Virus record (IMG/VR): IMGVR_UViG_2693429733_000004
Location: 1 to 28,960 of that record
DNA: 28,960 bases
Origin: a virus
Taxonomy: Duplodnaviria > Heunggongvirae > Uroviricota > Caudoviricetes
Direction: 5' to 3' (one strand)
This document shows, one piece after another, positions 5,519 to 6,819 of the stretch. Made by a program: the position numbers and the translations under genes. The notes under the pieces are model-generated. The model had not been told where the DNA came from and searched no databases. It saw only the letters and a program-made list of their open reading frames with translations. Positions within the stretch are counted from its first letter, which is position 1; every line of letters starts with the position of its first letter.

Positions 5519-5538
<20 letters not shown>

Positions 5539-5812
5539 TCTCCCGCATATTGCCAGCATGGCTTTTAATGAGCCGCTGATGCTTGAACCCGCCTATGCGC
5601 GGGTTTTCTTTTGTGCGCTTGCAGGCCAGCTTGGGATCAGCTGCCTGACGGATGCAGTATCCGGCGACAGCCTGACTGCCGGAGAGGCACCCGCGGCGCT
5701 GGCGTTATCCGGTGATGATGACGGACCACGACAGGCCCGCAGTTATCAGGTAATGAACGGCATCGCCGTGCTGCCGGTGTCCGGCACGCTGGTCAGCCGT
5801 ACTCGGGGATGA
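5519..5812 (+). CDS. C: gpC N-terminal ORF (97 codons, GTG start) - 5' part of a frame-disrupted head protease/scaffold gene C
   Basis: AGGAGG SD at 5504..5509 then GTG 5519; translation (M)[30 protein letters not shown]… matches gpC N-terminus; frame ends at TGA 5810..5812. Confidence 0.6.
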
Positions 5813-6819
5813 CCGGTTACAACGGCATTATCGCCCGTCTGCAACAGGCTGCCAGCGACCCGATGGTGGACGGCATTCTGCTCGATATGGACACACCGGG
5901 CGGAATGGTGGCGGGAGCATTTGACTGCGCTGACATCATCGCCCGTGTGCGTGACATAAAGCCGGTATGGGCGCTGGCCAATGACATGAACTGCAGCGCA
6001 GGTCAGCTGCTTGCCAGTGCCGCCTCCCGGCGTCTGGTCACGCAGACCGCCCGGACAGGCTCCATCGGCGTCATGATGGCTCACAGTAATTACGGCGCTG
6101 CACTGGAGAAACAGGGCGTGGAAATCACGCTGATTTACAGCGGCAGCCATAAGGTGGATGGCAACCCCTACAGCCATCTACCGGATGATGTCCGGGAAAC
6201 ATTGCAGTCCCGGATGGATGCAACCCGCCGGATGTTTGCACAGAAGGTGTCGGCATATACCGGCCTGTCCGTGCAGGCTGTGCTGGATACCGAGGCTGCA
6301 GTGTACAGCGGTCAGGAGGCCATTGATGCCGGACTGGCTGATGAACTTGTTAACAGTACCGATGCGATCACCGTCATGCGTGATGCACTGGATGCACGTA
6401 AATCCCGTCTCTCAGGAGGGCGAATGACCAAAGAGACTCAATCAACAACTGTTTCAGCCACTGCTTCGCAGGCTGACGTTACTGGCGTGGTGCAAGCGAC
6501 GGAGGGCGAGAACGCCAGCGCGGCGCAGCCGGACGTGAACGCGCAGATCACCGCAGCGGTTGCGGCAGAAAACAGTCGCATTATGGGGATCCTCAACTGT
6601 GAGGAGGCTCACGGACGCGAAGAACAGGCACGCGTGCTGGCCGAAACCCCCGGTATGACCGTGGAAACGGCCCGCCGTATTCTGGCCGCAGCACCACAGA
6701 GTGCACAGACGCGCAGTGACACTGCGCTGGATCGTCTGATGCAGGGGGCACCGGCACCGCTGGCTGCAGGTAACCCGGCATCTGATGCCGTTAACGATTT
6801 GCTGAACACACCAGTGTAA
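5809..6819 (+). CDS. C: gpC C-terminal ORF (336 aa; S49/ClpP-like prohead protease domain; contains Nu3 in frame)
   Basis: ORF MTGYNGIIARLQQAASDPMVDGILLDMDTPGG… in a different frame from 5519..5812; its ATG overlaps the upstream stop (ATGA at 5809..5812). Confidence 0.7.
   Translation: MTGYNGIIARLQQAASDPMVDGILLDMDTPGGMVAGAFDCADIIARVRDIKPVWALANDMNCSAGQLLASAASRRLVTQTARTGSIGVMMAHSNYGAALEKQGVEITLIYSGSHKVDGNPYSHLPDDVRETLQSRMDATRRMFAQKVSAYTGLSVQAVLDTEAAVYSGQEAIDAGLADELVNSTDAITVMRDALDARKSRLSGGRMTKETQSTTVSATASQADVTGVVQATEGENASAAQPDVNAQITAAVAAENSRIMGILNCEEAHGREEQARVLAETPGMTVETARRILAAAPQSAQTRSDTALDRLMQGAPAPLAAGNPASDAVNDLLNTPV
6424..6819 (+). CDS. nu3: Scaffolding protein Nu3 (131 aa; internal in-frame start within C)
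   Basis: ATG at 6424 preceded by GGAGGG; MTKETQSTTVSATASQADV… matches lambda Nu3; shares stop with C. Confidence 0.75.
   Translation: MTKETQSTTVSATASQADVTGVVQATEGENASAAQPDVNAQITAAVAAENSRIMGILNCEEAHGREEQARVLAETPGMTVETARRILAAAPQSAQTRSDTALDRLMQGAPAPLAAGNPASDAVNDLLNTPV

What the first reader, a model, noticed from the sequence alone, without database searches (positions are those of the whole stretch)
5519..6819. Head protease/scaffold gene C is split into two overlapping ORFs at an ATGA junction
In lambda, C is a single 439-codon gene with Nu3 nested in frame. Here the C frame stops at TGA 5810..5812 after 97 codons, and the S49 protease-domain part (MTGYNGIIARLQQ…) continues in a different frame from ATG 5809, opening only at 5722. 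The pieces total 433 codons, consistent with a small out-of-frame deletion. From memory lambda reads …SRTRALQPYSGMTGYNG… here; if that is right, the lesion is a 19-bp deletion between two copies of a short direct repeat (agccgtactcggg, one copy remaining at ~5795..5807). The ATGA stop/start overlap could permit coupled reinitiation, so a two-piece protease cannot be excluded. Nu3 (6424..6819) is unaffected.
Basis: partly seen in the sequence, partly recalled or inferred. Interest (0 to 1): 0.5.

Follow-up and report, generated by a model that had tools for sequence, protein, structure and literature searches.

The report
Frameshifted prophage head-protease gene C
A lambda-like prophage of Shigella sonnei has lost 19 bases from its head-protease gene C, splitting it into two reading frames; this is a real but rare and recent knockout-type mutation of the kind routinely seen in decaying prophages, so it is ordinary.

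Summary
The C frame runs from GTG 5519 to TGA 5810..5812 (97 codons). The rest of C runs from ATG 5809 to 6819 (336 codons) in the -1 frame, with an ATGA overlap. Against lambda and against the intact allele of the same prophage, the only difference at this site is a 19-bp deletion between two copies of CAGCCG.

The window is Shigella sonnei contig CXDM01000046.1. The same junction occurs in at least 24 contigs from independent assemblies and read sets, so it is not a sequencing error.

It is a rare derived allele. The split product is listed in 40 index blocks. The intact 439-aa product, which equals the two fragments plus ALQPYS, is listed in 7,802 blocks, including complete S. sonnei chromosomes. 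Carriers share a linked SNP, which points to one origin. The junction is absent from 5,426 complete E. coli genomes and 50,697 phage records.

The break lies in the loop after the first beta-strand of the S49 fold, so that core strand is separated from the catalytic part. ATG 5809 has no usable ribosome-binding site, and no stimulatory RNA structure follows it. C is essential in lambda.

The best reading is a recent frameshift pseudogene in a prophage that is already decaying. Nu3 is intact. Interest is low.

The parts
5519..5812 (+). 5' fragment of lambda-type gene C: GTG start, 97 codons, TGA stop. Encodes gpC residues 1-96 plus a frameshift-derived Gly. Contains the non-protease N-terminal region and beta-strand 1 (GIAVLPVSGTL) of the S49 fold.
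   Evidence: SppA (3RST) aligns from gpC residue 81. No Pfam hit on its own.
5794..5799 (+). Deletion junction: the single surviving copy of the CAGCCG direct repeat. The ancestral sequence was GGT-CAGCCG-GACGCGGGCGCTG-CAGCCG-TAC, and 19 bp (one repeat plus the spacer) are missing.
   Evidence: Alignment to lambda and to intact S. sonnei alleles L010/L011. Indel listings.
5809..5812 (+). ATGA overlap. ATG 5809..5811 is the codon of gpC Met103, now in the -1 frame relative to the upstream part. TGA 5810..5812 is the new stop of the 5' fragment.
5809..6819 (+). 3' fragment of gene C: a 336-codon ORF equal to gpC residues 103-439. It carries the Peptidase_S49 domain, including the Ser aligned with the SppA nucleophile (gpC Ser166), and the Nu3 scaffold part. 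No Shine-Dalgarno sequence lies at usable distance from ATG 5809.
   Evidence: Pfam PF01343 at 150.2 bits against a cut-off of 24.9. SppA alignment. Upstream context CTGGTCAGCCGTACTCGGGG.
6424..6819 (+). Nested in-frame scaffold gene Nu3 (131 codons), with its own AGGAGG at 6414..6419. Intact. The longer RefSeq-style nu3 start corresponds to ATG 6214.
   Evidence: Only four substitutions relative to lambda within this part.

Best explanation
This is a genuine, recently arisen loss-of-function allele (a frameshift pseudogene) of the head-maturation protease gene C. It sits in a lambda-like prophage resident in Shigella sonnei.

Mechanism of origin (inferred from the anatomy): slipped-strand mispairing or microhomology-mediated deletion between two CAGCCG copies 13 bp apart removed 19 bp.

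Consequences shown directly by the sequence: translation from GTG 5519 stops after 97 codons. The remaining 336 codons, which hold the catalytic S49 domain and the scaffold tail, lie in the -1 frame.

Consequences that are inferred: the full protease is no longer made in useful amounts. Any 336-aa product would lack the first core beta-strand of its fold and six loop residues (ALQPYS). Nu3 is still made from its own start, but procapsids could not mature. Because C is essential in lambda, this prophage cannot produce viable heads in carriers of the allele.

The allele is carried vertically by a small sublineage. There is no sign that it is anything more than neutral decay, or at most selection against virion production.
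For: 1. The lesion is real.
- The identical 97-aa plus 336-aa gene pair is found on at least 24 contigs from separate NCBI assemblies. These are GCA_900487965.1, GCA_001259615.1, GCA_001252175.1, GCA_001253895.1 (this window), GCA_001252135.1 and GCA_001261215.1.
- It is also found in independent Logan assemblies of runs ERR5979253 and SRR19126783.
- Both products are named Shigella sonnei by their source.

2. The lesion is derived and recent.
- S. sonnei contigs L011 and L012 are identical to the window over 1.2-1.4 kb except for the 19 bp.
- Three complete S. sonnei chromosomes differ from window 1..15046 by 1-7 SNPs plus the 19 bp.

3. The allele is rare.
- The reconstructed intact 439-aa protein exists exactly as such. 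It is named S. sonnei / Shigella, is seen on at least 1000 contigs, and is listed in 7,802 index blocks.
- The split products are seen on 26-34 contigs and in 40 blocks.

4. One origin is likely. All carriers have C at window 7130, while all four intact alleles that cover this position have T.

5. It has the signature of a microhomology deletion: CAGCCG on both sides in the ancestor.

6. The junction was not found elsewhere. It is absent from GTDB species representatives, IMG/VR, 5,426 complete E. coli genomes and 50,697 phage records. A wild-type 55-mer control found 67 phage records.

7. The break is structurally damaging. B. subtilis SppA (3RST) aligns to gpC from residue 81 at E = 4e-22, with GIAVLPVSGT matching KIAVLEVSGT. 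Strand 1 therefore lies on the 97-aa piece, and the Ser166 equivalent lies on the 336-aa piece.

8. There are no rescue signals. No Shine-Dalgarno sequence lies at proper spacing. The RNA downstream folds no better than shuffles (z = +0.80).

9. C is essential in lambda (EOP < 2e-7 on knock-down, and essential in the literature; PMC10695390).

10. The surroundings show decay.
- The second lambdoid module on the same scaffold has a J gene with a nonsense codon and a 22-bp deletion between CTGACGG repeats. The same J lesions are present in S. sonnei 53G.
- In complete S. sonnei genomes an IS3-family element sits between the lysis genes and cos of this prophage.
Against: - Every other head and tail gene of this prophage, from nu1 to L in the window and on to J in L002, has lambda-length open frames. 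The prophage is therefore not grossly degraded, and a leaky C allele would not be pointless.
- The break falls in a loop, and the new stop overlaps an ATG. That is the arrangement that can allow termination-reinitiation.
- The sequence G-GGG-A-TGA could allow a low rate of -1 P-site slippage. This would give a single chain lacking only ALQPYS.
- No functional data exist for this allele, and no selection test is possible. No SNP falls inside C among the carriers.
- The split allele is under-counted wherever annotators mark it as a pseudogene without a protein.
Confidence: 0.88

Rival explanations
1. A two-piece protease. Ribosomes terminating at TGA 5810..5812 reinitiate at the overlapping ATG 5809. 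The 97-aa fragment (N-terminal region plus strand 1) and the 336-aa fragment then reassemble non-covalently into an active S49 protease, so head maturation still works.
For: There is an ATGA stop/start overlap. The break lies in the loop between beta-strand 1 and helix 1, not inside a secondary-structure element. Both fragments are complete ORFs, and all other morphogenesis genes are intact.
Against: No Shine-Dalgarno sequence lies at usable spacing before ATG 5809; there is only GGGG abutting the ATG. Strand 1 is a core strand of the ClpP/crotonase-type fold (established knowledge of the fold) and would have to be supplied in trans. Six loop residues are lost. The arrangement occurs in no other phage or E. 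coli prophage searched. It is a rare derivative, by a few SNPs at most, of an intact allele that dominates the species, so nothing indicates it has been selected.
Confidence: 0.04
2. Leaky rescue by -1 ribosomal slippage. With GGA (5807..5809) in the P site and the TGA stop in the A site, tRNA-Gly re-pairs on GGG (5806..5808) and the ribosome then reads ATG 5809. The product is single-chain gpC lacking only ALQPYS (...SRTRGMTGYNG...). Because few gpC copies are needed per procapsid, a low slippage rate might suffice.
For: The sequence is C-GGG-GA-TGA, and the frame relationship is exactly -1. The fused product would equal lambda gpC minus residues 97-102, which lie in a loop.
Against: It is not a canonical X-XXY-YYZ tandem slippery site. 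The 80 nt downstream fold no better than shuffled sequence (z = +0.80; 151 of 200 shuffles fold as well). The site was created by a recent random deletion and is not conserved anywhere. Whether the loop tolerates a 6-residue deletion is untested.
Confidence: 0.04
3. A sequencing or assembly artefact: the 19 bp are present in the real genome.
For: The window is a short-read scaffold with at least one artificial join, an N at record position 15047. S. sonnei carries several similar lambdoid prophages that confuse assemblers.
Against: The same junction appears in at least 24 contigs from different assemblies and in independent Logan assemblies of two unrelated runs. It is linked to a private SNP at 7130. 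A 19-bp loss between direct repeats is not a typical Illumina error. The contig is continuous and unique across the site.
Confidence: 0.02
4. A selected inactivation (domestication). The lesion was favoured because it stops production of infectious particles while the lysogen keeps the rest of the prophage, or because the 97-aa N-terminal fragment interferes with head assembly of superinfecting lambdoid phages.
For: Two different lambdoid prophages on this scaffold carry small out-of-frame microhomology deletions in essential virion genes: C delta-19 and J delta-22. The N-terminal 80 residues lie outside the protease fold and would still be made at normal level.
Against: The allele is present in only about 0.5% of index blocks that carry this gene, so it has not swept. 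Nothing distinguishes it from neutral decay. No interference function of a gpC N-terminal fragment is known.
Confidence: 0.02

Closest known systems
Bacteriophage lambda gene C / Nu3 (head maturation protease gpC of MEROPS family S49, with the scaffold Nu3 nested in frame; NC_001416 4418..5737)
   Same: The position in the head gene cluster is the same: nu1-A-W-B-C/Nu3-D-E. The joined fragments are identical to lambda gpC at 423 of 433 aligned residues. The S49 domain and the Ser166 equivalent are the same. The nested Nu3 has its own AGGAGG.
   Different: 19 bp are missing (lambda 4697..4715). The gene is therefore read as 97 + 336 codons in two frames, residues ALQPYS are lost, and strand 1 is separated from the rest of the protease fold.
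The intact C allele of the same Shigella sonnei prophage (for example CP104423.1, CP029794.1, CP035008.1; 'S49 family peptidase [Shigella sonnei]', 439 aa)
   Same: It is identical to the window over 15 kb apart from 1-7 SNPs. Its protein is exactly the window's two fragments plus ALQPYS.
   Different: It has the 19 bp and a single open frame. It carries T rather than C at the position of window 7130. It is far more common: 7,802 against 40 index blocks.
Frameshift pseudogenes in decaying prophages, for example the J gene of the second lambdoid prophage of S. sonnei (also in strain 53G, HE616528.1)
   Same: Both are small out-of-frame deletions between short direct repeats (22 bp between CTGACGG copies, against 19 bp between CAGCCG copies) in an essential virion gene.
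   Different: The J pseudogene has a second lesion, a nonsense codon at codon 68, and is more widespread (124 index blocks, including a reference genome). It therefore looks older. C delta-19 is the only lesion in its morphogenesis module.
Translationally coupled gene pairs with ATGA overlaps, and programmed -1 frameshifts such as lambda G/G-T
   Same: There is a four-base ATGA stop/start overlap, and the two frames have a -1 relationship.
   Different: There is no Shine-Dalgarno sequence in the upstream ORF, no canonical slippery heptamer, no downstream structure and no conservation. The overlap is an accident of where the deletion put the frame.

Membership tests
Peptidase family S49 / lambda gpC-type prohead protease | A Peptidase_S49 (PF01343) domain scoring above the curated threshold | tested here: met
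   The 336-aa fragment scores 150.2 bits against a cut-off of 24.9. Intact lambda gpC scores 152.1 bits.
Peptidase family S49 / lambda gpC-type prohead protease | The nucleophilic serine is present (gpC Ser166, aligned with the SppA active-site serine) | tested here: met
   gpC ...DMNCS(166)AGQ... aligns with SppA ...SMAAS-GGY... in 3RST. The residue is retained in the 336-aa fragment. That this serine is the nucleophile rests on published work on SppA and gpC, recalled from memory and not re-read here (Medina et al. 2010 is not held).
Peptidase family S49 / lambda gpC-type prohead protease | The complete fold lies on one polypeptide: strand 1 through the catalytic core, continuous with the C-terminal scaffold part | tested here: not met
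   Strand 1 (gpC 81-90) is on the 97-aa ORF and the rest is on the 336-aa ORF in another frame. Residues 97-102 are deleted. The locus is therefore a disrupted member, not an intact one.
Peptidase family S49 / lambda gpC-type prohead protease | Proteolytic activity in procapsid maturation | not testable with these tools
   Needs complementation or biochemical assays.
Nested scaffold gene (lambda Nu3 type) | An internal in-frame start with its own ribosome-binding site, sharing the C terminus of C | tested here: met
   ATG 6424 is preceded by AGGAGG at 6414..6419, and the frame is open to 6819. The Nu3 part is identical to lambda except for four substitutions.
Frameshift pseudogene made by microhomology (slipped-strand) deletion | An intact ancestral allele exists in close relatives, and the lesion is the derived state | tested here: met
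   Intact alleles in S. sonnei differ only by the 19 bp and 0-7 SNPs. The intact protein is far more frequent.
Frameshift pseudogene made by microhomology (slipped-strand) deletion | The deleted segment is bounded by a short direct repeat with one copy retained, and its length is not a multiple of three | tested here: met
   CAGCCG-N13-CAGCCG in the ancestor; one CAGCCG is left, and 19 bp are lost.
Frameshift pseudogene made by microhomology (slipped-strand) deletion | Loss of function of the product | not testable with these tools
   Inferred from the position of the break and the lack of reinitiation signals. C is essential in lambda (PMC10695390).
Programmed -1 ribosomal frameshift | A slippery heptamer X-XXY-YYZ plus a downstream stimulatory structure, conserved among relatives | tested here: not met
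   The 0-frame codons are ACT-CGG-GGA-TGA, so only single-tRNA slippage on G-GGA is conceivable. The downstream fold has z = +0.80. The junction is absent from all other collections searched.
Translationally coupled overlapping genes | A stop/start overlap with a Shine-Dalgarno sequence 5-10 nt upstream inside the first gene | tested here: inconclusive
   The overlap is present (ATGA). No Shine-Dalgarno sequence lies at proper spacing; the upstream 20 nt are CTGGTCAGCCGTACTCGGGG. Reinitiation independent of a Shine-Dalgarno sequence cannot be excluded by sequence alone.

The most novel reading that the evidence does not exclude
The delta-19 allele is not null. A working head protease is still made in small amounts, and the prophage keeps the ability to mature capsids. 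One route is -1 P-site slippage on G-GGG-A with the TGA stop in the A site, giving one chain that lacks only the loop residues ALQPYS. The other route is termination-reinitiation at the ATGA, followed by assembly of the two fragments. The second route would be a natural example of a split S49 protease.
Probability: 0.05. Interest if true: 0.4.

Novelty: already known. Interest (0 to 1): 0.08.

Why it matters
It matters little beyond annotation. The two CDSs deposited as 'minor capsid protein C' in these Shigella sonnei assemblies should be read as one frameshifted pseudogene. The prophage in carrier strains should be scored as unable to make mature heads.

The 19-bp deletion, with its linked SNP at 7130, could serve as a lineage marker within S. 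sonnei. Together with the 22-bp deletion in J of the neighbouring prophage, it illustrates that short-repeat deletions are one route of prophage decay in this IS-rich, clonally evolving pathogen.

Only if the allele proved leaky or functional would it be of wider interest, as a natural split or recoded S49 protease.

Tried and rejected
1. Sequencing artefact. Rejected, because independent assemblies and Logan read assemblies reproduce the junction.

2. A wider distribution of the split allele. Exact-pattern scans of GTDB representatives and IMG/VR found nothing. Stringent 55-mer junction searches of complete E. coli genomes and phage records also found nothing. A wild-type control 55-mer worked. 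An earlier 101-nt search could not discriminate, because wild-type loci match as two joined pieces.

3. Programmed frameshift. There is no downstream structure and no canonical slippery site.

4. The apparent truncation of L at 15083 and its fusion to a second Z-to-J module. I first took this for a prophage rearrangement. It is a scaffold join: the GenBank record has an N at 15047, which the window shows as A. Other assemblies continue normally into L-K-I-J.

5. Extending the S. sonnei prophage context leftwards. The DUF1398 protein is too widespread and returned only E. coli loci. Whether the early region of this prophage is intact in S. sonnei therefore remains unknown.

6. Medina et al. 2010 (gpC is the viral protease) is not held. 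The identity of the catalytic residue rests on the SppA alignment plus memory.

7. A literature search for this allele or prophage in S. sonnei found nothing specific.

8. I did not run the large homologue searches or a structure prediction, because they could not change the verdict.

Full report
**What is in the sequence**

- The window carries a lambda-type morphogenesis cluster: nu1 1292..1837, A 1812..3737, W 3734..3940, B 3937..5538, then C, D, E, FI, FII, Z, U, V, G, T, H, M and L.
- Window 1115..15046 aligns to lambda 13..13964 at 97.3% identity.
- At the position of gene C, a frame opens at GTG 5519 and stops at TGA 5810..5812 after 97 codons.
- ATG 5809..5811 overlaps that stop (ATGA) and opens a 336-codon frame that ends at 6819.
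- This second frame is closed upstream by TGA 5719..5721.

**The lesion**

- Lambda C is one gene of 439 codons, 4418..5737.
- Pairwise alignment shows a single 19-bp gap in the window, at lambda 4697..4715.
- In the 13.9 kb that align to lambda there are only seven indels. Five lie at the end of H and compensate each other. One lies in non-coding DNA near cos. The 19-bp gap is the only one that breaks a frame.
- Joining the two window ORFs gives lambda gpC with residues 97-102 (ALQPYS) missing and ten substitutions.
- The ancestral sequence, identical in lambda and in intact Shigella sonnei alleles, is GGT-CAGCCG-GACGCGGGCGCTG-CAGCCG-TAC. One CAGCCG and the 13-bp spacer are gone.

**Where the window comes from, and whether the lesion is real**

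- The 336-aa product is found by exact look-up on contig CXDM01000046.1 of GCA_001253895.1. That contig is 28,960 bp long, which is the window itself.
- The product is also found on at least 23 further contigs. These come from five more NCBI assemblies and from Logan assemblies of runs ERR5979253 and SRR19126783. In each case the 97-aa ORF lies directly upstream.
- The sources name both products 'minor capsid protein C [Shigella sonnei]'.
- These contigs are identical to the window over up to 15 kb, apart from 0-3 SNPs.
- An artefact reproduced in unrelated read sets and assemblers is not credible. The deletion is real.

**Ancestral and derived states**

- S. sonnei also carries the intact allele. 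Contigs L011 and L012 match the window without a single mismatch, except that they have the 19 bp.
- Three complete chromosomes (CP104423.1, CP029794.1, CP035008.1) match window 1..15046 with 1-7 SNPs plus the 19 bp.
- The reconstructed intact protein (97-aa fragment minus its last Gly, plus ALQPYSG, plus the 336-aa fragment) exists exactly as such.
- The split products are seen on 26-34 contigs and in 40 blocks. The split allele is probably under-counted where annotators mark pseudogenes without a protein, but the disproportion is large.
- All carriers have C at window 7130, and all four intact alleles covering that site have T. This fits a single origin followed by vertical inheritance, with a few private SNPs since then.
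- The junction is absent from GTDB species representatives, IMG/VR, 5,426 complete E. coli genomes and 50,697 phage records. A wild-type 55-mer used as a control found 67 phage records at the same threshold.

**What the break does to the protein**

- Pfam places Peptidase_S49 at gpC 150-297 and finds nothing in the 97-aa fragment.
- A sequence search of solved structures aligns B. subtilis SppA (3RST, E = 4e-22) with gpC from residue 81. gpC GIAVLPVSGTL matches SppA KIAVLEVSGTI, followed by a loop, then the helix beginning GYNG/GYNH, then the strand GILLDMDTPGG.
- In the ClpP/crotonase-type fold of S49 enzymes, this first strand is part of the central sheet (established knowledge of the fold).
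- The deletion therefore removes six residues of the strand 1-helix 1 loop. It leaves strand 1 on the 97-aa ORF and everything else, including the serine aligned with the SppA nucleophile (gpC Ser166), on the 336-aa ORF.
- C is essential for lambda growth (EOP < 2e-7 on knock-down, and essential in the classical literature; PMC10695390). It acts with B and Nu3 in the procapsid initiator (PMC3224144).

**Could the allele still work?**

Two rescue routes can be imagined.

- *Termination-reinitiation at the ATGA.* The 20 nt upstream of ATG 5809 are CTGGTCAGCCGTACTCGGGG. The only purine run abuts the ATG, so there is no Shine-Dalgarno sequence at working distance. The product would also need strand 1 supplied in trans.
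- *-1 slippage of tRNA-Gly.* The tRNA would slip from GGA 5807..5809 to GGG 5806..5808 while the stop sits in the A site. The ribosome would then read ATG 5809 and give ...SRTRGMTGYNG.... The frame arithmetic fits. However, this is not a canonical tandem slippery site, and the 80 nt downstream fold no better than shuffled sequence (z = +0.80).

Both features are accidental products of a recent deletion, and nothing indicates selection for them. I give each route about 4%.

**Context**

- The prophage is otherwise well preserved. All head and tail ORFs have lambda lengths in the window. In L002 the module continues intact through L, K, I and J.
- The prophage nevertheless lives in a genome where prophages decay.
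- In complete S. sonnei genomes, an IS3-family element lies between the lysis cassette and the DUF1398 gene/cos. This is why all short-read contigs, including the window, start there.
- The second lambdoid tail module on the same scaffold is 97.8% identical to a common E. coli prophage. Its J gene has a nonsense codon and a 22-bp deletion between CTGACGG repeats. The same J lesions are also present in strain 53G.
- The C lesion is thus one more small-repeat deletion in an essential virion gene.

**Verdict**

- The feature is a real, rare, recent frameshift pseudogene of lambda-type gene C in a Shigella sonnei prophage, made by a 19-bp microhomology deletion. Nu3 is intact.
- This is an ordinary kind of event. 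Interest is low (0.08).
- The only reading that would raise the interest is a leaky or two-piece protease. That reading is unsupported, and I give it about 5% in total as the novel case.

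Noticed in passing
window 15047 (and 15046..15086): The GenBank record has a single N at position 15047; the window shows A there. It is a scaffold join. Up to 15046 the contig is the lambda-like prophage, inside gene L, which therefore looks truncated at 190 codons. After the join, a different lambdoid module starts at the end of FII/Z. 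Other assemblies continue normally into L-K-I-J. The L truncation and the 'tandem' tail modules are therefore assembly artefacts, not biology.
   Followed up: yes
window 23041..26492 (J of the second lambdoid module): J is a pseudogene with two lesions. One is a stop at codon 68 (23242..23244, Trp in E. coli relatives). The other is a 22-bp out-of-frame deletion at 24906/24907 (CTGACGGTGGAGGTGAGCGCAG) between two copies of CTGACGG. This is the same kind of microhomology deletion as in C. The same three-piece J is found in S. sonnei 53G (HE616528.1) and in 124 index blocks.
   Followed up: yes
window 26560..26620 and 26620..28261: The start of a lom-like gene (ATG 26560) breaks off after about 35-60 nt. 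It is followed abruptly by an internal fragment of a lambda-type J gene, 94.5% identical to lambda 16360..18002, which probably belongs to the first prophage. In other S. sonnei records lom (199 aa) is complete after J. This is probably a second scaffold or assembly join.
   Followed up: partly
just upstream of window position 1 (L017 about 2760..4483; L019 3233..4506): In complete S. sonnei genomes, an IS3-family element (HTH_Tnp_1/rve/rve_3 ORFs) is inserted between the lysis cassette/KilA-N genes and the DUF1398 gene that precedes cos. In one genome an IS1 lies just upstream of the holin. This explains why all short-read contigs start here. It also means the late operon of this prophage is interrupted in the whole species. 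The early region could not be inspected.
   Followed up: partly
L018 about 9056 (gene B); L019 about 7821 (gene A) and about 17863 (gene H): Two complete S. sonnei chromosomes with an intact C show their own 1-2-nt indels relative to the window, in portal, terminase and tape-measure genes. These genes are not called, or are called split, there. This could be independent decay or long-read homopolymer errors.
   Followed up: no
L003 (GCA_001259615.1), equivalent to window 14000..15028: One carrier of the delta-19 allele is identical to the window up to about 14000. It then differs at about 230 positions in the end of H, M and L, and its K/I region resembles the second module (94%). This suggests recombination between the two resident lambdoid prophages, or a chimeric assembly.
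   Followed up: no
window about 5642/5643: Three S. sonnei assemblies with the intact allele have contigs that all begin at this same position inside C. Many E. coli/Shigella partial products end at codons 78-88 of C. This is probably an assembly-graph branch point where co-resident lambdoid prophages stop being identical.
   Followed up: no
lambda RefSeq annotation against window 6214 / 6424: NC_001416 annotates nu3 as 5132..5737 (201 codons; window equivalent ATG 6214). Both starts are intact here.
   Followed up: partly
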